DNA of 20,000 nt from Asterionella formosa (lineage: Eukaryota): NCBI GenBank assembly GCA_002256025.1, contig NKIB01013093.1, forward strand, positions 44,327 through 64,326, written 5' to 3'. Below, piece after piece: positions 637-19,537 of this stretch. Position 1 is the first letter of the stretch; every line of letters begins with the position of its first letter. A program made the translations under genes and the position numbers. The notes under the pieces were generated by a model, which worked only from the letters and a program-made list of their open reading frames with translations, was not told where the DNA came from and did no database searches.

Positions 637-984
637 CCTCTGCCATTAGCCAAATGTGACGCACCACGCTCAGCCATCAATCACATCCTCAGCATAAAAG
701 CAATTCATCTACCAGTACCGGTACTTACCGGATGGATACCGTATGATGTTATGATAAAGATCTACCCCATACGTACAGGTAGTACTGTTGATCATCTATC
801 TTTATTTTCATACATGATTATACATATGCGTATGCAAACCATGTGCAGACAATGTGGATAGAGTAGACTACATACCGGTACATGATAATATCTTCTTACG
901 TACCTGTATTTACAATCAAAATCATTCTTTCCATGTTGCGACAATAACAGTAACAACAAGCGCAGAAACAACAATGCCGAGACA

Positions 985-2546
985 ATGACATCAACTCTGA
1001 TGACGACCATCACACTCACCCTACTCCTCTCTGTAGGAGATGCTGCTTTCACGTCTGCTCCTCGCATGATCGAGCAGCCCCGACCCTCCCGTCGAGCTGT
1101 TGTTGTTTCGTCCATCTTTGGAGGAAGTCTATTCGGAGGAGGATCCGTCGAGCCGAGCAAGGGGGCCACCAACGAGGTCCTCAAAAGTTCCCATGGTATG
1201 AAGCAACGCCGCTTGGGCGGGTCAGACATTCTAGTGAGTGCCCTAGGACTGGGCACCCAACGATGGGTATCGACGGACTTTAACGCTCCCAACGAGCAAG
1301 AATGCTTTGCGTTTATGGACGAAGCGATTCTGAAGCACGGCGTCAATTTGATTGATACGGCAGAGCAATATCCCATTCCTAGCGACGGAAGTCGAGCGAA
1401 GGAAGGAGATACAGAACGATGCATCGGGAAGTGGATGAAAGAACGGAAGGTGTCAAGAGAGAAAGTCGTGATTGCCACCAAGATTACTGGAGGGCGGAAT
1501 GTCACGCCCAAGAATATCAAGGCTGATTGTGAAGGGTCCTTAAAGAGGTTGGGAACAAACTATATTGATGTCTATCAGGTAAGTTCGTTGCAGGAATGTC
1601 ATGAATTAGATATTGGCCTCGTGCTCAAGTTAATGTTTTGATGCATGTAGCTTCACTGGCCGCAAAGATATTCTCCACAGTCGAATTGGGGTCAATCCAT
1701 GGCTTATAACATTGACAACGACAGCAACCCCTACTGGCGGTCCAATGGAGGACCAACCTCGTTTGAGGACCTGTGCTTGGCGATGGAAGGACTCATTCAA
1801 GAAGGAAAGATTCGGGGATGGGGATTGTGCAATGACAATGCATATGGTCTCACTGCCTGCACAAGGACTGCTAAGGCATTAGGAGTCACCCCGCCGTGTT
1901 CAATACAGGGTGATTTCAGTCTCATTGATCGCAAATCTGAAGAAAATGGAGTAGCTGAAGCTGCATCACCCTTTAATGAAAATGTTGGTTTCATGTCATG
2001 TACGTAACATAACTTGTCTCTTTTGTTTGTTCTAACGTCGGGATCAGAACCAGGAATTCACCAATGACTTTTTTCAATTCTCCAGACAATGCCCTCGCGG
2101 GTGGAATGTTGACTGGCAAATATCTGAGTGTCCCTTCCGCTTCAGACGATATTGGTGAACGCGCCAATGCTTCATTTCGTCAACCTCGGGGTCGCATGGA
2201 CACGCGTGGATGGGGCCAGACCCTCTATAGGTATCGAACTGACGCGGTCCAAGATGCGATACGGGACTATGCCACAATTGCTAACGAGCACAAAATGACG
2301 CTCACGGAATTGAGTTTGCGATGGACACAGCAAAGATCCTTGGTAACGACGACGCTGGTAGGGCATTCGACACTGGAACAGTTGCAAGAAAGTTTAAAAT
2401 ACTTTACAATGAAGGAGCCACTCTCGGATGAAATCATGTGGGCCGTGGATCGTGTGCACATGAGAAATCGACTTCCTATTTTCAGTTCCAATAGAGTAGG
2501 ATCAGATTGGTATGGATCGGGTGAGATTGGTGAACCGATTCCATAA
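985..2546 (+). CDS. Aldo/keto reductase, Tas-like, probably plastid-targeted; join(985..1578,1651..1999,2086..2546), about 467 aa
   Basis: Three ORF-track fragments splice in frame: IDVYQ|LHWPQR and VGFMS-Y-NALAGGMLTGKY. AKR catalytic residues are visible in DTAEQY (Asp, Tyr), IATK (Lys) and LHWP (His), plus LGLGT and SLKRLGTNYID. N-terminal hydrophobic segment ends in GDAAF. The start could be the ATG at 985 or at 1000. Confidence 0.92.
1579..1650 (+). other. Spliceosomal intron 1 of the AKR gene (72 nt)
   Basis: GTAAGT donor, CATGTAG acceptor; contains an in-frame stop; removal restores YQLHWP. Confidence 0.92.
2000..2085 (+). other. Spliceosomal intron 2 of the AKR gene (86 nt)
   Basis: GTACGT donor, TTCTCCAG acceptor; removal gives the split codon T|AC (Tyr) and restores SYNALAGG. 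Confidence 0.9.
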
Positions 2547-5117: not shown

Positions 5118-6443
5118 TTAATACCAAAATTCTTGATATCGCCTCACTATTTCTTCCTTCACTTGTCGTTCATCGCGTTGTGCATCTGGGTGATAGAGGA
5201 GGTCATACATGAACAATGTGGCTCGCTCAGATATTTGTCTTGCCTTTTGGTCATTGTCTCTGACCCACTGCACCATTTCTTCTGCATTAGCCCCATCAAC
5301 ATCCATAGGAATGTAATGTACCCAAGGCTCCAGTAATTCTTCCATCGCCCAAGATGTCCTTGTCGGCTTTGGCATAAGAACCACAGATTTGCTAAGCAGA
5401 TTCCATTTAAGCCCTGATGCCACATCATTGCCTTCGAAGCTGATTAATATTTTGTAACTTTGAAACTCTCCCATGGACAATCGTTCCTTGGTGAGTTTGA
5501 CTCCATTCACAGTGTCTGGTATCAAGCCGACGGTGTCATCGATACCAGCATCAATTAATTTCGAGTTCATGTGTTCTAACACAAAGCGACATCTCTGGTT
5601 TTCTCGGCAATGCTGTAGTGGTGGCAAATCGCTGGGTGCATGACCTTTCCCAGTGAACGCCCCTCTCCAAATGGCTAGCGGTTTCTTCTGTTCCCATGCC
5701 CTATCACAACTCCTCGAATCTTCCAACGGCTCCCAGTGGCGAATTGTCTCCAACTTCCAGATAATACTACCGGTGGGGATGGCTGATATCAGTTCATTAT
5801 TATCTGGACATTGACTCGTCAGATCTTGTAGTTCCTGACGGGTCATGGCATTTCGCCATTTGCCAATCATCGGCACGCTATCGTCATTGACAGCAACATC
5901 TCCAAAGTGAGCCACTAGTGGAGTCCGTCTCGATAGAGGAGTGTCAAACTGATCATTGATATCCATCAAATCTTGTACATTTTGGCAGTAACTACGCATG
6001 GAGCCTCGTTGGTGCACATGCGGGCTTTCTCCCCCCCTGGAATCTGCACAATCATCAACAACGGGCCGGTTCAACAGTAACTTGCTGTCGGGTTGGACAA
6101 GGCCAAGAAAAAGTGCCTCCTCGTCGTTGCTGGTGTTGTGAACTTGCAATGTGGGGTAGGGCCCATCCTCGTTCCGGCTGTATTGGATATTAGGAAGAGT
6201 GAAATTGTGGCAGAGCCTTACTGCGTACCAACGATGCATGTATATCTTGACGCGGTCCTCCACACTTGGGAATCGGTCCTCTCGGGACAGTGGATGCCAC
6301 TCGGCATGGAAGGAAAATGGTAATGGCAAGAATGCTGGGCGTAGAAAGGAATGAATATAAGAAACATTGCCCACGACAACGAACAAGAAGAGGAATACTC
6401 CAATTACTCGAAGGTGATGGCCAAAGATACGGCGAGCGCTCAT
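5118..6443 (-). CDS. Glycosyltransferase family 90 (CAP10-like) type II membrane protein, 441 aa
   Basis: Single long ORF with an N-terminal TM anchor and GT90 motifs WEQKKPLAIWRGAFTG, YKILISFEGNDVASGLKW, SKSVVL, LEPWVHYIP and AQQI-like ARQISERA. Confidence 0.88.
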   Translation of the reverse strand: MSARRIFGHHLRVIGVFLFLFVVVGNVSYIHSFLRPAFLPLPFSFHAEWHPLSREDRFPSVEDRVKIYMHRWYAVRLCHNFTLPNIQYSRNEDGPYPTLQVHNTSNDEEALFLGLVQPDSKLLLNRPVVDDCADSRGGESPHVHQRGSMRSYCQNVQDLMDINDQFDTPLSRRTPLVAHFGDVAVNDDSVPMIGKWRNAMTRQELQDLTSQCPDNNELISAIPTGSIIWKLETIRHWEPLEDSRSCDRAWEQKKPLAIWRGAFTGKGHAPSDLPPLQHCRENQRCRFVLEHMNSKLIDAGIDDTVGLIPDTVNGVKLTKERLSMGEFQSYKILISFEGNDVASGLKWNLLSKSVVLMPKPTRTSWAMEELLEPWVHYIPMDVDGANAEEMVQWVRDNDQKARQISERATLFMYDLLYHPDAQRDERQVKEEIVRRYQEFWY

Positions 6444-7192
6444 TTGGTCCTTGGAACGGATCGAAACGAGTCTACCGTACTACACTGCGTTTCGTGTCAA
6501 CGCAGTTCTGTTTGGCTTGGCTTGCAGCCCTGACTGTGCTGTCAATGAAAGGAAGGATTGGGATTGCTCAATAGAGATGTGCCGCAGGGGACAATGACAG
6601 CGAAGAATGATTTTGTTCGAATGTGTCAAGGGCACTGCTATCATAAGTATACCGGTACTCGGCATGGTTCGGTTGTTTGTTTGATATAGCTATACCGGTA
6701 TTACTCCAACCATCCACGTAGTAGTATATATTGATACACATGACTGAAGAAAAAAATACAAGAATCGAGGACAACGATGACGAATCTGTTATCAAGGATT
6801 TCTCAAATGCAGTATATGCCGGTCGTGGCTAAGCAACTGGAGAGATCGGCTCCCGCCACACCAGCCAAAGATGATCTTTCGAACGCACATTTTATGTACG
6901 TACAGGAACCATCATACGTTGCTACATACAGGAATCGGAATGGCTACATTTTTAAACCGGCATGCTGCATTTTAATAATCAATGCCCCTTCTTTTGTAGA
7001 AAAATCATTTTATTCAACTTACGGTATACCGGTAATAACAATTAATACGAACAGTGTGACTACATTTTTTTATGAGCGATCATTCAAGATTACATTGAAT
7101 TCCATCACAACACTCCTGCATCGCAGTTGTTGGCTACATTCTTGCAGAGTAAGTTCGACCAGAAAGTCACATCATACCGGGTATTTGGAAGG

Positions 7193-14764: not shown

Positions 14765-15997
14765 ATGGGAAACAAACCAATCAAGGTCGGCATCCAGTTG
14801 GATCGATTTACGTATAAATCTGGGAGTGAACTGACAGGACGGGTCTTTCTGTCCGTGTCAGACGGCGCGGAAGGCATTCCAATTAGCAGCACTGGCGTCA
14901 CTTTGGCTATCGTCGGCGAAGAATATTATGGAATAGTAGTGCGAGGACAGAATCCTCAAACAAAAGCCCCCGTCAATGAGGTAGATGAGGTACATCAGTT
15001 CCTCCGTATAGAGGTACCACTGACAGCATTCCAGTCGAAATGTATCCCATCGACTGGTCAATATGAGTATCCGTTTCAGTGGACAATCCCTGCCCATTTG
15101 CCCAGCTCCATGGCATGCCAATATTTCAACGTGCACTGCGGAATCCGGTACAAAATCACTGCCTTCTTGAACCAACCAGCAGCAAGGCACATCTCGGAAT
15201 ATACCGCGACTCAACTTTTTAAAATTTCCGCTGAAGGCCAGCACAAGGCAGCGACCACAGGCATTGTCGTTGTCGAACCAGAATACATTCCCGTCCATGT
15301 TTGTTGTTTCAATAAAGGTTCCATGATGCTGGGATTTGACATTTCATCAACGAATGTCTCGCCAAATTCGACTCTAGAAGTTGGAATTGTTGGAACGAAT
15401 GCATCTTTTGTTGATGTCCACTATCTAAAGGCGGAGTTGTTTGAAGCGGTTGAGTGCCCCTTTCCCCATGACAACGGCCATAATAAGTATACGATGAGGC
15501 GGCTATTAGCAGAAAGGAAGTTTGGACCAAATGAGCATTGGGCTCCTATTATTAACACTCCTCGTTTGAGTTACATGGATCAAGTGCAGGTAACTGAAGA
15601 AACAGTTGGTCGAGTCCATGGAGTTTTGCGATTGCCAACTGATGCTAGAGATACCTATCAAGGATCTTTTATTGTAGTCAGTCACTCCCTTGTAGTTACT
15701 GCAGTGACTTCAGGAGCATGCTTTGTCACTTCACCCTCGACCTTCATTCCTGTTCGAATGGGGAGACAGGAGGCTTCTATCGATGACGATGACACAGTTG
15801 GCCTTCACCAAGGTGCTCCCATTGGGGGTAACTTATGTGAGTTGCAAGATGATCCTCCTATGGAATCTGCTCAATTTTTACCTGTCGGTTGGTCGCCCCA
15901 TGAAGCAGATGTAGTTTTCATTCCAGCTTCTACAGTTTCACTTGAAGGCGACTACAGCTTAGTGGAACTCACGCCGACAGCTCTAGATCCTTTGTGA
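14765..15997 (+). CDS. Arrestin N-terminal-domain (alpha-arrestin-like) protein, 410 aa
   Basis: Intact ORF with Arrestin_N-like motifs YKSGSELTGRVFL, GEE, GQYEYPFQWTIPAHLPSS and GIRYKITA, and an Arrestin_C-like TYQGSFIVVSHSLVV. Confidence 0.82.
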   Translation: MGNKPIKVGIQLDRFTYKSGSELTGRVFLSVSDGAEGIPISSTGVTLAIVGEEYYGIVVRGQNPQTKAPVNEVDEVHQFLRIEVPLTAFQSKCIPSTGQYEYPFQWTIPAHLPSSMACQYFNVHCGIRYKITAFLNQPAARHISEYTATQLFKISAEGQHKAATTGIVVVEPEYIPVHVCCFNKGSMMLGFDISSTNVSPNSTLEVGIVGTNASFVDVHYLKAELFEAVECPFPHDNGHNKYTMRRLLAERKFGPNEHWAPIINTPRLSYMDQVQVTEETVGRVHGVLRLPTDARDTYQGSFIVVSHSLVVTAVTSGACFVTSPSTFIPVRMGRQEASIDDDDTVGLHQGAPIGGNLCELQDDPPMESAQFLPVGWSPHEADVVFIPASTVSLEGDYSLVELTPTALDPL

Positions 15998-16559
15998 CGA
16001 AACGAAAATATCATTCGAAGGAATTTTTTGACAACAAATTCAAAGACAATGGTTTTGGTTGATGACCCAAAAATTTGAGGGTTTAGGGGACAAGAAGTTT
16101 TGATATTTATAAATTATTTTCAGAGGGCAGAAGGTTCGAGTTCATTGTAGTCACATTGGTAACTAGATTCGAACATTGTGCTCACGAGTGATGGGAATCT
16201 ACCATTAAAAGCAAGAGAAGAAAAATTAAACCTGACAAAGACGAACCAGGAGGCATATAGTTCACCGAAGAAAAACTATATACCGGTAAATAAATACCTT
16301 TCTTTTTAATTTAGCAGACAGTTGACTAATTATTCAACGAAAGCAATACTCTAATCTTCGCAAAGTTGCAAAAAATGGCATTCATTCAATCAGTACTCAA
16401 GTAAAACCAAGACCTCGTAAGCATGTTCATTCTACACCTTCCTTCGATGCTTGTTAGTTATTAAGTAGTGTGGAATATTCTCTATTATTCATCCATATAA
16501 TATATACAACCATTTCACTCCCTCTGATTTCCGATGCTCCTCATGTATTCTATTTATCT

Positions 16560-16607
16560 TTCAGCCATTTCAGTAATGCCATCTGGTTACTCCTGAAACA
16601 ACGTCAT
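16560..16607 (-). promoter_or_regulatory. Candidate eukaryotic SECIS element in the 3' UTR of the 16673-17128 gene
   Basis: Minus strand reads AUGAC-GUUGUUUCAG-GAGUAACCAGAUGGCAUUA-CUGAAAUGGC-UGAA: an AUGAN/NGAN non-Watson-Crick core in register on a 10-bp helix (16602-16593 with 16573-16564; 7 WC + 3 GU) with a structured apical region. The lower helix is weak and the apical AA is not at canonical spacing. Confidence 0.65.
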
Positions 16608-16672
16608 TCACTGCTATATAACATTTCGGCAGCGTAAATTTCCATTGGTAGCGGTATTTTAGTACGACGCAA

Positions 16673-17128
16673 CTAGACCCGTTGTCATCCAACCTTTGGG
16701 TCGCAAGGCAAATCTTTCATTCCTCGAATATTTGCCCCTGGTTGTTTCCTTCTCCCTCCACCACTAGATGAAGGAGATGTTATACCACTAGCACTACTAG
16801 TCGTGATGCGATTGAAACATGTGTAGGCACCCAGTGCAATCAGTAATGCAATAGCTACCATGGTAACAACAAAGAACAAGGAACGAGTAAGTAACAAAAC
16901 CATCCCACAGTGTACACAACAACAAAATCGTAGCTACTTCCAAGCATTTGACGCACTCCCAGAGGGTCCCAGAAGAAAAGAAATAATGGCAAGTGATACC
17001 AAGAATTGCTTCACGTCGAGGTTGAATCCAAAGACATCAACAGTGGTACCACCAGAAGACGTCAAGGTCTCATCGCCGGCTACGACTTCGCCGTTGACAA
17101 TCCTTGTCTTTGTCTTTCTCGCTACCAT
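16673..17128 (-). CDS. Small membrane protein, FAM241/DUF4605-like with SelK/SelS-like tail; candidate selenoprotein; complement(join(16673..16854,16957..17128)); ends at 16685 if TGA is a stop
   Basis: Two ORF-track fragments splice to MVARKTKTRIVNGEVVAGDETLTSSGGTTVDVFGFNLDVKQFLVSLAIISFLLGPSGTIALLIALGAYTCFNRITTSSASGITSPSSSGGGRRKQPGANIRGMKDLPCDPKVG-(TGA 16687-16685)-QRV-TAG. 113 aa to TGA, 117 aa with Sec. The gene call is firmer than the Sec readthrough. Confidence 0.8.
16855..16956 (-). other. Spliceosomal intron (102 nt) of the small membrane-protein gene
   Basis: GTGCGT donor, CTTAC branch-like site, T-rich tract, TAG acceptor; contains an in-frame TAG; removal gives A|CT (Thr) and a continuous hydrophobic hairpin. 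Confidence 0.82.
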
Positions 17129-17385
17129 TCCAATATGGTATTTACCACAGTTGGGAAGTAAAAGTCGTCACGATTTTAAATGAGGCTGAGGATCTTGTAG
17201 AGTCTACATACACCCCCAACATGTGCCTCATCACAAATGGAACAAAGAAAATGTAGACAACCTTGGTGTGCTACGGGAATCCCATGGAAGCGCGAATGAC
17301 TAAAAACAGGAACCAGGCAGGCGGCAGATTGCTTCATCCACACATGTGCATGGTGTTGTTTTCTGGTACCTCGTACTATTCGGTG

Positions 17386-17492
17386 TACCTGGTACCTGGT
17401 ACCTGGTAAAACTACATTCTTATGTAGGTAGCAATACCTGGTACCTGGTACCTGGTACCAGGTACCTGGTACCTGGTACCCTGGTACCAGTA
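17386..17492. repeat. (TACCTGG)n heptamer arrays
   Basis: 17386-17408 is TA(CCTGG TA)x3; 17435-17492 is TA separated by CCTGG, CCTGG, CCTGG, CCAGG, CCTGG, CCTGG, CCCTGG, CCAG. Confidence 0.9.
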
Positions 17493-18089: not shown

Positions 18090-19537
18090 TAGTCGTGTCC
18101 TCCAACTCACCATGAAGTATCGTGGAGCCATGGATCTTGTCAAGAATTTTGTACTTTTTAGTAATTGCAACAACAAAAACAATTATAATAATAGCACAAC
18201 ATTCAAAGCTGCTATTACCAGTAGCAGTAGACGAGAATTGGAAGCCATATTGTTCCGGCTGATCCAGAATGGGGTACCGGTACCCTGTATCCCTTGGGGT
18301 CACCATTGGGTATTGCAAATGGTGTACTACTCTCTACCAGCCACAGTATGGGTCTATGAGTACACACAGGCACAAAATACAATGCGACAGAAGAAACGAT
18401 GCATCGACACTGCGGCTGATAGTCAAACAGGTATTATAATGGCAAACAGTGCAACTATTGGTATTGCACATCAGGATTGATCCAAGATTACGTCCCTTTC
18501 ACGGAATGCTCCCTTCTTGTATGCACTAGCTAGGTCTCACCAATGAACGAGGTGAAACCAAACCAACCAAGTCAGCAAAAATAAAGCGATGTAAAAAATT
18601 TGTGGAAATTGTTAGTCACTTGATCCAAATTGCATTGGTGGAACCCACTGCTGCTGCTGCTCCTGCTGCTGCTGCTGCTCCTCCTCCTGCTCCTCCTGCT
18701 CCTGCTCCTGCTCCTGCTCTTACTACTCTTAAGAGAATCATATTATGTACTGACATGGGATGTGGTCAAGGATACTTGACATTTTCGTTACAGCATCATT
18801 ATTTAAAGGAAAAGTGTCATGGGAAGCAAATACAAATCCACTCGAAAGGGATTGATATGAGACCCAAATTGGCTAAGGAAATGAATGATATTGCAACGAA
18901 GCTGAACATGGAAGGATTAGCGTTTGAAGGAGGAACTATTGAAGATGGGTTATTTCCTCAGACTGATGACCATGAGCGGTCAATAGTACATGCTGCAACC
19001 ACAGAAAACCCATCACTTGACATTTTGATTGCCCTGTATGCATGCGATTCTGCCACAGATGATGCCATTTGGTATGGAATGTTACAGCAATCAGATATTA
19101 TTGTGGTGGCCCCATGTTGTCACAAACAAATTCGACAACAACTTGACCAATGCTTGTCTACAACTACCACTACCACCAGTCATCCACTTGGATCTGTCTT
19201 ACAGCACAATGTGTACAAAGAACGCATGGCCGAAATGGTCACTGATTCCATCTGTGCTCTATTACTGGAATTGACCAATTATCGAACACAAGTCTTTGAA
19301 TTTGTTGGTGGAGAGCACACATCAAAGAATCATGTCATGATTAATGCAGTGAAATGAACCAAGAAACGAACTGTCCAAGAACAATGTGAGTTGAGGACCA
19401 AGTTAAAGGCACTGGCAACCTTGCATGGGGTCGTCAATCAACAATTGGCCAAGTGGATGAATGTAGAGTTGAGTGATAACATTCCATCAACAACAACAAC
19501 CATGAAGCTATCAACCAAGAAAATGCCTCCTTTGTAA
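18090..19537 (+). pseudogene. SAM-dependent methyltransferase (Methyltransf_32-like) pseudogene
   Basis: Motifs KKFVEIV, DMGCGQGYLTF, GIDMRPKL, IALYACDSATDDAIW, APCCHKQIR, EFVGGEHTSKN. Lesions: TGA at 18478-18480, a 4-bp GCTA insertion and frameshift near 18527-18532, TGA at 19355-19357 followed by 59 more open codons (...LKALATLHGVVNQQLAKWM...MPPL, TAA 19535-19537). The 5' boundary is approximate. Confidence 0.8.

What the first reader, a model, noticed from the sequence alone, without database searches (positions are those of the whole stretch)
16560..17128. Candidate undescribed selenoprotein: FAM241-like membrane hairpin with C-terminal Cys...Gly-Sec tail and a downstream SECIS
Seen in sequence: after splicing, a 113-aa protein with a RIVNGEVV N-terminus, a two-helix hydrophobic hairpin (LAIISFLLGPSGTIALLIALG) and a Ser/Gly/basic disordered tail ends DLPCDPKVG-TGA-CAA-CGG-GTC-TAG. 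The TGA is 3 codons before a true TAG, and an AUGA...GA hairpin starts about 78 nt downstream of it. Established knowledge: diatoms use selenocysteine; SelK and SelS are small ER membrane proteins with a Gly/Pro/basic tail and a Gly-preceded Sec 2-3 residues from the C-terminus; human FAM241B starts MVRILANGEIV and has a similar LLxxLGxxG hairpin but, to my knowledge, is not a selenoprotein. Inference: this is a Sec-containing FAM241/SelK-like ER protein with a possible Cys-x5-Sec redox pair, which standard annotation would truncate at TGA.
Basis: partly seen in the sequence, partly recalled or inferred. Interest (0 to 1): 0.85.

Follow-up and report, generated by a model that had tools for sequence, protein, structure and literature searches.

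The report
Small diatom membrane selenoprotein gene
A small two-exon diatom gene for a membrane-anchored protein very probably reads its apparent TGA stop as selenocysteine four residues before the true end, so databases list the whole family too short and without its likely reactive residue.

Summary
On the minus strand, ATG 17128, a 102-nt GT..AG intron (16956-16855) and exon 2 give a 113-aa protein. It ends DLPCDPKVG, then TGA (16687-16685), then Q-R-V and TAG. RNA contigs from 3 of 4 runs carry the splice joint.

The TGA is very probably selenocysteine (about 0.85). All 26 database relatives that include the tail stop at exactly this position after a near-invariant motif. The one divergent orthologue with DNA (L001/L002) keeps TGA, Q-R-V and a second stop, with third-position synonymous changes only, and similarity ends after that stop. 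Both species carry, downstream on the same strand, an AUGA...GA stem-loop with identical core flanks. In the window it lies 80 nt after TGA, under RNA-library contigs.

Rfam SECIS models do not match, and the window hairpin is not thermodynamically unusual.

The protein has the SelK/SelS-type architecture: hydrophobic anchor, Gly/Ser/basic tail, C-terminal Sec. It is not a Pfam SelK_SelG member (1 of 21 queries, below cut-off) or a DUF4605 member (0 of 21). The FAM241 link is only a lead (language-model score 0.79).

Verdict: probably a new sequence family of a known kind of selenoprotein, unannotated in diatoms.

The parts
16957..17128 (-). Exon 1 coding part: start ATG at 17128, 57 codons plus 1 base. 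It holds the N-terminal RIVNGEVV motif, the DVFGFNL motif and the first hydrophobic helix, ending LLGPSG.
   Evidence: RNA contigs cover 16957-17216 (X1) and 16957-17248 (X2). Relatives start the same way.
16855..16956 (-). Intron, 102 nt, GT..AG, phase 1. It sits between the two hydrophobic helices, and its position is shared by relatives.
   Evidence: The joint 16854|16957 is in contigs of 3 of 4 RNA runs. Genomic gene calls of relatives (P0003, P0007, P0011, P0015) carry an insertion at the same place. L002 has an intron there too.
16688..16854 (-). Exon 2 coding part up to the TGA: second hydrophobic helix (IALLIALGAYTCF), a Ser/Gly/basic tail, and the conserved NIRGMKDLPCDPKVG.
16685..16687 (-). 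In-frame TGA, proposed selenocysteine codon (residue 114). Cys108 lies six residues upstream (Cys-x5-Sec).
   Evidence: TGA is kept in L001/L002. 26 of 26 tail-bearing database relatives stop exactly here.
16673..16684 (-). Three codons after the TGA (Gln-Arg-Val), then the true stop TAG (16675-16673).
   Evidence: L001/L002 have the same three residues, with synonymous changes in 2 of 3 codons, and TAA at the same place. After that, 19 of 60 bases are identical.
16536..16633 (-). SECIS-like stem-loop in the 3' UTR. Outer helix I pairs reach 16633/16536. An internal loop holds AUGA (16607-16604) opposite GA (16562-16561). Helix II has 10 bp (16602-16593 with 16573-16564). The apical part (16592-16574) has two mini-stems and an unpaired AA at 16588-16587.
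   Evidence: The unconstrained minimum-energy fold gives this architecture. It is the only hit of the ad hoc scan in 40 kb. Its core flanks (a 10-base block on the 5' side and a 7-base block on the 3' side) are identical in L002 2279-2344. There is no Rfam SECIS match.
16357..16672 (-). 3' UTR, at least as far as contigs from RNA libraries run on from exon 2.
   Evidence: Contigs cover 16436-16854 (X1, poly(A) library) and 16357-16854 (X7). Contigs cannot show the poly(A) site.

Best explanation
This is an expressed two-exon diatom gene for a small membrane-anchored selenoprotein of 117 residues. Its UGA at residue 114 is recoded as selenocysteine by a SECIS stem-loop that starts 80 nt downstream in the 3' UTR. 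Translation then ends at UAG after Gln-Arg-Val.

The protein has a short conserved N-terminal part with beta-hairpin motifs (RIVNGEVV and DVFGFNL). A 30-residue hydrophobic helix-break-helix anchor follows. Then comes a disordered Ser/Gly/Arg/Lys-rich tail that ends in the near-invariant motif (I/V)(R/K)G(V/I/M)(K/S)DLPCDPKxG-Sec.

Inferred, not shown: it works like the SelK/SelS class, with a membrane-tethered flexible tail that presents a reactive Sec at its tip. The conserved Cys six residues upstream would form a reversible selenylsulfide with Sec, as Cys174-Sec188 is proposed to do in SelS.

By sequence it is its own family, found so far in diatoms. It is not a recognisable member of Pfam SelK_SelG or DUF4605.
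For: Gene and splice.
- The sequence gives the gene model.
- The splice joint is in 3 of 4 RNA runs.
- The exact spliced 113-aa protein is in public collections.

Stop position.
- Of 43 proteins stored, 26 carry the tail.
- All 26 end exactly three residues after DLPxxP; 24 of 26 end in Gly and 22 of 26 have the Cys.
- These relatives share only 27-52% identity with the window protein apart from its own near-identical copy (97%). They include Seminavis, Attheya, Entomoneis, Grammatophora and Gedaniella.

DNA of the one divergent orthologue (L001/L002).
- BLASTP aligns only the last 19 residues of exon 2, 16 of 19 identical, including the position of TGA and Q-R-V.
- In the last 13 sense codons, 7 differ, all at third positions and all synonymous, including 2 of the 3 codons after TGA.
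- TGA is kept, the second stop is at the same place (TAG against TAA), and then 19 of 60 bases match.

SECIS.
- The window element is the only 1 of 282 candidates passing an energy-plus-stem filter in 40 kb. Shuffles gave 1 hit in 600 kb.
- L002 has, on the same strand about 740 nt after its TGA, a stem-loop with the same 10-base 5' and 7-base 3' core flanks. The pattern occurs once in the window, with 0 of 200 shuffles matching, and once in L002.
- The L002 fold shows helix I, an internal loop with AUGA/GA, and helix II, with z = -2.19.
- Contigs from RNA libraries cover the window element contiguously with exon 2.

Context.
- Diatoms use Sec: 16 selenoprotein genes and a Sec tRNA in Thalassiosira pseudonana (PMC2375036, passages read).

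Architecture.
- Hydrophobic stretch F42-F71.
- The AlphaFold model has helices 39-53 and 55-76 at pLDDT 82-85, with a disordered tail.
- The 42-residue tail has 7 Gly, 7 Ser, 4 Pro and net charge +5.
- This fits the stated features of the SELENOK/SELENOS group (PMC10650576, section 2.6 passages).
Against: - No Rfam SECIS family matches the window element or the L001 UTR, even at E <= 10 on short stretches. I had no known diatom SECIS as a positive control.
- The window stem-loop folds no better than shuffles (z -0.91 and -0.01).
- The unpaired AA lies 15 nt after AUGA, which is further than I recall for canonical SECIS elements.
- My scan thresholds were chosen after seeing the candidate.
- DNA evidence for the stop codon comes from only two species. 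L001 and L002 are near-identical, 94% mean column identity with gaps counted, and count once.
- In L002 the element is about 740 nt from the TGA, and I have no RNA evidence that it is on the same transcript.
- Sec would be fourth from the end, not second or third as stated for SelK/SelS.
- No protein-level or selenium evidence exists.
- Membrane topology, location and redox function are inference only.
Confidence: 0.82

Rival explanations
1. The TGA is an ordinary stop. The protein is the 113-aa form that the databases list. The conserved bases after it are a termination context with a back-up stop, and the hairpin is fortuitous.
For: All database entries end at Gly. Rfam SECIS models do not match. 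The window hairpin has no thermodynamic signal. Only two species could be checked at the DNA level.
Against: A C-terminus fixed to the residue across relatives of about 27-52% identity is unusual for a true end. The three codons after TGA keep their amino acids through third-position changes. Similarity ends right after the second stop. The identical SECIS-like core flanks in both species are not expected by chance.
Confidence: 0.1
2. It is a selenoprotein, but simply the diatom orthologue of SelK (SELENOK). It would have diverged beyond the reach of the Pfam model, so it would be a member of an already known family.
For: It has the same overall plan: conserved N-terminus, hydrophobic anchor, Gly-rich basic tail and Gly-Sec near the end (PMC10650576). 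One relative (P0028, Entomoneis) matches PF10961 SelK_SelG at E = 0.0039 and 18.2 bits, over its second helix and Gly-rich tail. Some relatives replace Cys-Asp by prolines (DLPPPPSGG, DLPPPPKSS). From recall, this resembles the proline-rich end of animal SelK. The algal survey lists SELENOK among algal families (PMC7539508, passages).
Against: PF10961 reaches its cut-off (23.3 bits) in 0 of 21 queries and appears at all in only 1 of 21. That one match covers a low-complexity Gly-rich stretch. No SelK-named cluster came up in the language-model search. The anchor here is a helix-break-helix with conserved Gly residues, and a conserved Cys precedes Sec. Neither is a stated SelK feature. I could not run a profile-profile comparison because no SelK sequence was available from the tools.
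Confidence: 0.3
3. It is a selenoprotein that is homologous to animal FAM241A/B (DUF4605). FAM241 would then be a tail-less, Sec-less relative.
For: The language-model search ranks a chordate DUF4605 cluster third (0.79, 161 of 256 shared features), after a diatom cluster (0.92) and an oomycete cluster (0.82). No other named family appears when DUF4605 is left out. FAM241 proteins are described as having a conserved 20-residue N-terminus plus a conserved domain with a transmembrane segment (PMC11880036, passages). That is the same order of elements as here.
Against: PF15378 matched 0 of 21 queries at E <= 10. The tool rates scores under 0.9 as leads only. FAM241 ends soon after its membrane segment and was reported as not detected in single-cell eukaryotes (PMC11880036).
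Confidence: 0.25
4. The TGA is read through by a near-cognate tRNA (Trp, Cys or Arg) rather than by Sec-tRNA.
For: Coding conservation after the TGA shows translation past it but does not say which residue is inserted.
Against: A SECIS-like element with conserved core flanks is present in both species. The Gly-Sec C-terminal context is typical of selenoproteins (PMC10650576). Diatoms have the Sec machinery (PMC2375036).
Confidence: 0.03

Closest known systems
Selenoprotein K (SELENOK; Pfam PF10961 SelK_SelG)
   Same: Both are small proteins of about 100 residues. Both have a conserved N-terminus, a hydrophobic anchor in the N-terminal half and a disordered Gly-rich, positively charged tail. 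In both, Sec is preceded by Gly a few residues from the end, and no thioredoxin fold is present.
   Different: There is no Pfam match at the cut-off (0 of 21; 1 of 21 below it). Sec is fourth from the end, not second or third. A conserved Cys lies six residues before Sec. The anchor is a 30-residue helix-break-helix with conserved Gly54/Gly57, not a plain single helix.
Selenoprotein S (SELENOS)
   Same: It is a membrane-anchored protein whose disordered tail carries a Cys and a C-terminal Sec proposed to form a selenylsulfide (Cys174-Sec188; PMC3628699, abstract). It is grouped with SelK by architecture, not by sequence.
   Different: SelS is about 189 aa and has a long cytosolic region. Its Cys-Sec spacing is 13, against 5 here. 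No sequence similarity was found.
FAM241A/FAM241B (Pfam PF15378 DUF4605)
   Same: The order of elements is the same: conserved N-terminal motif, variable linker, then a conserved segment with the membrane helix. It is the nearest named family by language-model features (0.79).
   Different: PF15378 matches 0 of 21 queries. FAM241 lacks the long tail and has no Sec. It was reported only from multicellular animals. The similarity is untested at profile level.
C-terminal Gly-Cys-Sec-Gly redox centre of animal thioredoxin reductase (recalled, not tested)
   Same: A flexible C-terminal tail carries a Cys/Sec pair that cycles through a selenylsulfide.
   Different: In thioredoxin reductase the Cys and Sec are adjacent, and the tail belongs to a large flavoenzyme. 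Here the pair is Cys-x5-Sec on a small membrane protein with no known electron donor.

Membership tests
Eukaryotic selenoprotein gene (general criteria) | In-frame UGA conserved among orthologues | tested here: met
   TGA is present in the window and in L001/L002, that is 2 of 2 species with DNA. 26 of 26 tail-bearing database proteins stop at this position. Their stop codons could not be seen.
Eukaryotic selenoprotein gene (general criteria) | Protein-coding conservation continues past the UGA to the next stop | tested here: met
   Q-R-V is kept, with 2 synonymous third-position changes. The second stop is at the same place. After it, 19 of 60 bases are identical.
Eukaryotic selenoprotein gene (general criteria) | SECIS element (AUGA...AA...GA kink-turn stem-loop) in the 3' UTR | tested here: inconclusive
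   Rfam SECIS models gave no match. My own scan and folds show a SECIS-like architecture with identical core flanks in both species. SECISearch3 was not available.
Eukaryotic selenoprotein gene (general criteria) | The organism has the Sec machinery, and selenium is incorporated into the protein | not testable with these tools
   No genome is held for the window, and there is no tRNA in the window. Diatoms in general use Sec (PMC2375036).
SELENOK/SELENOS-like group (architectural definition, PMC10650576 section 2.6) | Single transmembrane domain in the N-terminal region | tested here: inconclusive
   One 30-residue hydrophobic stretch, F42-F71, is modelled as two helices, 39-53 and 55-76. Whether it is a single kinked span or a hairpin was not resolved.
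SELENOK/SELENOS-like group (architectural definition, PMC10650576 section 2.6) | Gly-rich segment rich in Gly, Pro and positive charges | tested here: met
   The 42-residue tail has 7 Gly, 4 Pro, 7 Lys+Arg and net charge +5. Relatives have longer Gly runs.
SELENOK/SELENOS-like group (architectural definition, PMC10650576 section 2.6) | Sec second or third from the C-terminus | tested here: not met
   Sec is fourth from the end (Sec-Gln-Arg-Val) in both species. It is C-terminal, but outside the stated positions.
SELENOK/SELENOS-like group (architectural definition, PMC10650576 section 2.6) | ER membrane location, type III topology | not testable with these tools
   There is no localisation data.
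Pfam PF10961 SelK_SelG | Match to the family model at or above the gathering score (23.3 bits) | tested here: not met
   0 of 21 queries reach the cut-off. 1 of 21 (P0028) scores 18.2 bits at E = 0.0039.
Pfam PF15378 DUF4605 (FAM241) | Match to the family model | tested here: not met
   0 of 21 queries match at E <= 10. The only link is a language-model similarity of 0.79.

The most novel reading that the evidence does not exclude
The diatom family would be a bridge between two groups: SelK-type membrane selenoproteins and the animal FAM241 proteins, whose function is unknown. FAM241 would then be a relative that lost the Sec tail. The ancestral job of the fold would be to tether a Cys-x5-Sec selenylsulfide redox switch to an endomembrane. 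This would add a new selenoprotein family to diatom selenoproteomes and give FAM241 its first mechanistic lead.
Probability: 0.2. Interest if true: 0.75.

Novelty: new variant of a known kind. Interest (0 to 1): 0.6.

Why it matters
- Annotation. Every database copy of this family that I saw is called uncharacterised and is cut at the TGA. Its probable reactive residue is therefore missing from diatom proteomes and from selenium budgets of a major group of primary producers.
- Detection methods. A Sec only four residues from the end, with almost nothing after it to align, is the kind of case that homology-based selenoprotein finders can miss.
- Biochemistry. A conserved Cys-x5-Sec on a membrane-tethered disordered tail is a simple, testable redox module.
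- FAM241. If the weak link to FAM241 holds, it would give a first functional hypothesis for a conserved human protein family of unknown function.

Tried and rejected
- Rfam. Scans at E <= 10 over 16000-17300, 16520-16650 and the L001 UTR gave no SECIS family, only chance-level hits to unrelated models.
- First pairing tried. I paired AUGA with the GA at 16571-16570. It gives a poor helix II (inner energy -0.5; whole-segment constrained fold -6.0 kcal/mol). I dropped it for the GA at 16562-16561, which the unconstrained fold supports.
- L001/L002 candidate at 240 nt after the stop. It has a weak helix II and no convincing helix I, and the two alleles differ around it. I dropped it for the element at 2279-2344 of L002.
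- Own genome and contig searches with Pfam models: not held.
- Scan of prokaryote genome contigs: one chance match inside an unrelated ORF of an archaeal MAG (L003).
- Scan of viral contigs: nothing.
- Family profile against PDB sequences: only chance-level membrane-protein hits, E >= 0.19.
- AlphaFold model: mean pLDDT 63.6. It is useful only for secondary structure, and I ran no fold search on it.
- Supplement of the algal selenoproteome paper: unreadable. I therefore cannot say whether that survey or its database already lists this gene, for example under SELENOK or 'Hypo'.
- Earlier findings of this scan: none for this genome or sequence.
- The X6 contig over 16150-16851 runs on for 1397 more bases into the convergent neighbour gene, so it says nothing about the end of the UTR.
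- Parts of the laid stretch without contig cover are not interpreted.
Full report
**What is in the sequence**

- On the minus strand an ATG at 17128 opens a 57-codon exon that ends ...LAIISFLLGPSG plus one base.
- A 102-nt intron follows (16956-16855, GTGCGT...GGTAG).
- Exon 2 continues TIALLIALGAYTCFNRITTSSASGITSPSSSGGGRRKQPGANIRGMKDLPCDPKVG.
- Then come TGA (16687-16685), three codons for Gln-Arg-Val, and TAG (16675-16673).
- The spliced product is 113 aa up to the TGA and 117 aa if the TGA is read.
- Left unspliced, the frame stops after ...GPSGSASNAWK.

**Expression and splicing**

I laid the contigs of four RNA runs on 16150-17400 (the runs came).
- A joint from 16854 to 16957 that skips 102 bases (CT..AC on the plus strand, so GT..AG on the gene's strand) stands in contigs of 3 of 4 runs (X1, X2, X7). 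The same three runs also hold an unspliced contig over 16825-16986.
- Contigs cover exon 1 up to 17216 (X1) and 17248 (X2).
- On the 3' side, contigs run on from exon 2 down to 16436 (X1, a poly(A) library) and 16357 (X7).
- The stretch holding the hairpin therefore lies under RNA-library contigs that continue from the coding exon. Contigs cannot show the poly(A) site.
- The exact spliced 113-aa protein is also on record in public collections (P0002; a 97% variant is P0012).

**The family**

Word-indexed and exhaustive searches found relatives only among diatom-type sequences.

| Query | Result |
|---|---|
| exon 1 protein, longer proteins | 2 with E <= 1 among 60 candidates |
| P0002 | 10 with E <= 1 among 52 candidates |
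| exon 1 protein, exhaustive | 10 proteins at E <= 0.001 in 1.84 billion representatives |
| profile A1 | 32 at E <= 10 among 8000 scored candidates |

- Named sources are Seminavis robusta, Attheya, Entomoneis, Grammatophora and Gedaniella. All entries are 'uncharacterized' or 'expressed unknown protein'.
- Conserved features are the N-terminal (R/K)I.(V/A)(N/S)G.(V/L)V motif, DVFGFN, Gly54 and Gly57 between the two hydrophobic halves, ALGAY, and the tail motif.
- Several genomic gene calls carry an in-frame insertion exactly where the window has its intron. L002 has an intron there too. The intron position is therefore old.

**Why the TGA is probably Sec**

Stop position. Of the 43 proteins stored, 26 contain the tail.
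- All 26 end exactly three residues after DLPxxP.
- 24 of 26 end in Gly and 22 of 26 have the Cys.
- The other 17 are my exon-1 translation, N-terminal fragments or unspliced calls, and one unrelated 888-aa weak hit.
- Some of the 26 are copies from one species.
- A C-terminus fixed to the residue, directly after the best-conserved motif of proteins that share 27-52% identity with the window protein apart from its own near-identical copy (97%), is what truncation at a Sec codon looks like.

DNA of an orthologue.
- They are near-identical to each other, so they count as one species.
- BLASTP aligns only the last 19 residues of their exon 2 to the window's, 16 of 19 identical. This includes the TGA position and Q-R-V.
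- Among the last 13 sense codons, 7 differ, all at third positions and all synonymous.
- TGA is kept, and 2 of the 3 codons after it carry synonymous changes.
- The second stop is at the same place (TAG against TAA).
- The next 60 bases are 19 of 60 identical.
- Selection on the protein therefore extends across the TGA and ends at the second stop.

**The SECIS-like element**

Negative results first.
- Rfam's SECIS models find nothing, even at E <= 10 on short stretches. I had no known diatom SECIS to check whether those models work for diatoms.
- The window hairpin is not thermodynamically special (z = -0.91 for 81 nt; z = -0.01 for 111 nt).

Positive results.
- The unconstrained minimum-energy fold of 16640-16530 puts AUGA (16607-16604) and GA (16562-16561) opposite each other in an internal loop. 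That loop sits between outer pairs and a 10-bp helix II (16602-16593 with 16573-16564). An apical part follows with two mini-stems and an unpaired AA.
- I scanned for ATGA, one base, a closed stem-loop, one base, GA. This is the only 1 of 282 candidates on both strands of the window with inner energy <= -10 kcal/mol and an outer stem >= 8 bp. Block shuffles gave 1 such hit in 600 kb. The thresholds are post hoc.
- The same scan on the 1485 bases after the stop in L002 has as its best-energy candidate an element at 2279-2344.
- The core flanks of that element are letter-for-letter those of the window: a 10-base block around AUGA and a 7-base block around GA.
- A pattern of these two blocks occurs once in the window (0 of 200 shuffles had a match) and once in L002. 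L001 ends before that place.
- The L002 element folds without constraints into helix I, an internal loop with AUGA/GA, helix II and an apical stem, with z = -2.19 and 7 of 200 shuffles folding as well. AA lies 10 nt after AUGA, a spacing that I recall as canonical.
- It lies about 740 nt after the TGA. Stop-to-stop frames of up to 167 aa lie in between. The two longest gave no Pfam match above cut-off.
- I have no RNA data for that species.

**What kind of protein it is**

- The hydrophobic stretch F42-F71 is 30 residues, with the conserved Gly54-Pro-Ser-Gly57 in its middle.
- An AlphaFold model built on 12 sequences (mean pLDDT 63.6; 82-85 over residues 31-70) gives two short beta-hairpins (9-16 and 29-38), helices 39-53 and 55-76, and a disordered tail.
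- Whether the two helices form a hairpin or one kinked span is not resolved.
- The 42-residue tail has 7 Gly, 7 Ser, 4 Pro and net charge +5.
- This is the plan that a review gives for the SELENOK/SELENOS group: an N-terminal membrane domain, a Gly/Pro/basic disordered segment and a C-terminal Sec. The review groups them by architecture, without significant sequence similarity (PMC10650576, section 2.6 passages).
- Two points differ. Sec is fourth from the end rather than second or third. A conserved Cys stands six residues before it, which recalls the Cys174-Sec188 selenylsulfide proposed for SelS (PMC3628699, abstract seen).
- In 4 of 26 tails the Cys-Asp is replaced by Pro or Lys-Pro (Attheya and two unnamed sequences).

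**Membership tests**

I scanned 19 family proteins and 2 window fragments against Pfam at E <= 10.
- DUF4605 (PF15378) matched 0 of 21.
- SelK_SelG (PF10961) matched 1 of 21: P0028 at 18.2 bits against a cut-off of 23.3, E = 0.0039, over the second helix and a Gly run.
- The language-model search ranked a diatom cluster first (0.92), an oomycete cluster second (0.82) and a chordate DUF4605 cluster third (0.79). No other named family appeared once DUF4605 was left out. The tool rates scores under 0.9 as leads.
- The FAM241 paper describes a conserved 20-residue N-terminus and a domain with a transmembrane segment near the C-terminus, not detected in single-cell eukaryotes (PMC11880036, passages).
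- I could not run a profile-profile comparison with either family. No SelK or FAM241 sequence was obtainable from the tools, and sequence from memory is not accepted.
- I therefore do not file the protein under either Pfam family. It works like a SelK/SelS-type protein. Its descent is open.

**Is it in print?**

- Lobanov et al. 2007 list 16 selenoproteins for Thalassiosira pseudonana, without SelK or SelS (PMC2375036, Table 2 and section 11 read).
- Jiang et al. 2020 report 42 algal families and 20-44 genes per diatom. They place SELENOK and SELENOS among the least widely distributed families. Their three new families are different proteins (PMC7539508, passages).
- Their method needs conserved sequence flanking the TGA, and here only three residues follow it.
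- Their supplement could not be read and their database is out of reach. The gene may already be listed there.
- Searches for FAM241B with selenoprotein, for DUF4605, and for diatoms with selenoproteins and SELENOK found no description of this family.

**Verdict**

The Sec reading is well supported, at about 0.85. The mechanism (a membrane-tethered Cys-x5-Sec redox tail) is inference. The FAM241 link is an untested lead. I rate it a new variant of a known kind, of moderate to good interest.

Noticed in passing
window 17385-17488: Two arrays of a 7-base tandem repeat (3.4 and 7.6 copies) lie about 260-360 bases upstream of the start codon, beyond the 5' ends of the RNA contigs.
   Followed up: partly
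window 14765-15997 (+): The convergent neighbour encodes an arrestin N+C domain protein. One RNA contig (X6) runs from exon 2 of the selenoprotein gene across the gap into this gene, so the two 3' ends may overlap or were merged in assembly.
   Followed up: partly
window 16825-16986: Intron-retaining contigs stand beside the spliced ones in the same three RNA runs. Retention would end the protein after ...GPSGSASNAWK. They may be pre-mRNA, DNA carry-over or a real isoform.
   Followed up: no
L001 940-1000 / L002 1780-1850: The two near-identical contigs differ by two substitutions and a 9-base indel, clustered in a 60-base stretch of the 3' UTR that also holds two ATGA motifs. The rest of the UTR is almost invariant.
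   Followed up: partly
window 889-1641 (+), 5118-6479 (-), 18530-19357 (+): Other open frames match aldo/keto reductase, glycosyltransferase family 90 and a methyltransferase domain. These are ordinary eukaryotic neighbours.
   Followed up: no
P0041, P0042 (database proteins, unnamed sources): Two more distant relatives start MVKIV(N/G)G and end DLPKPPPKS or DLPPPPKSS, without Cys or a final Gly. They may mark a wider, non-diatom branch whose stop codon is worth checking.
   Followed up: no
L003 1501-1587: An archaeal MAG contig matched the tail motif (KDLPCDP) inside a long unrelated open frame. It is a chance hit.
   Followed up: yes
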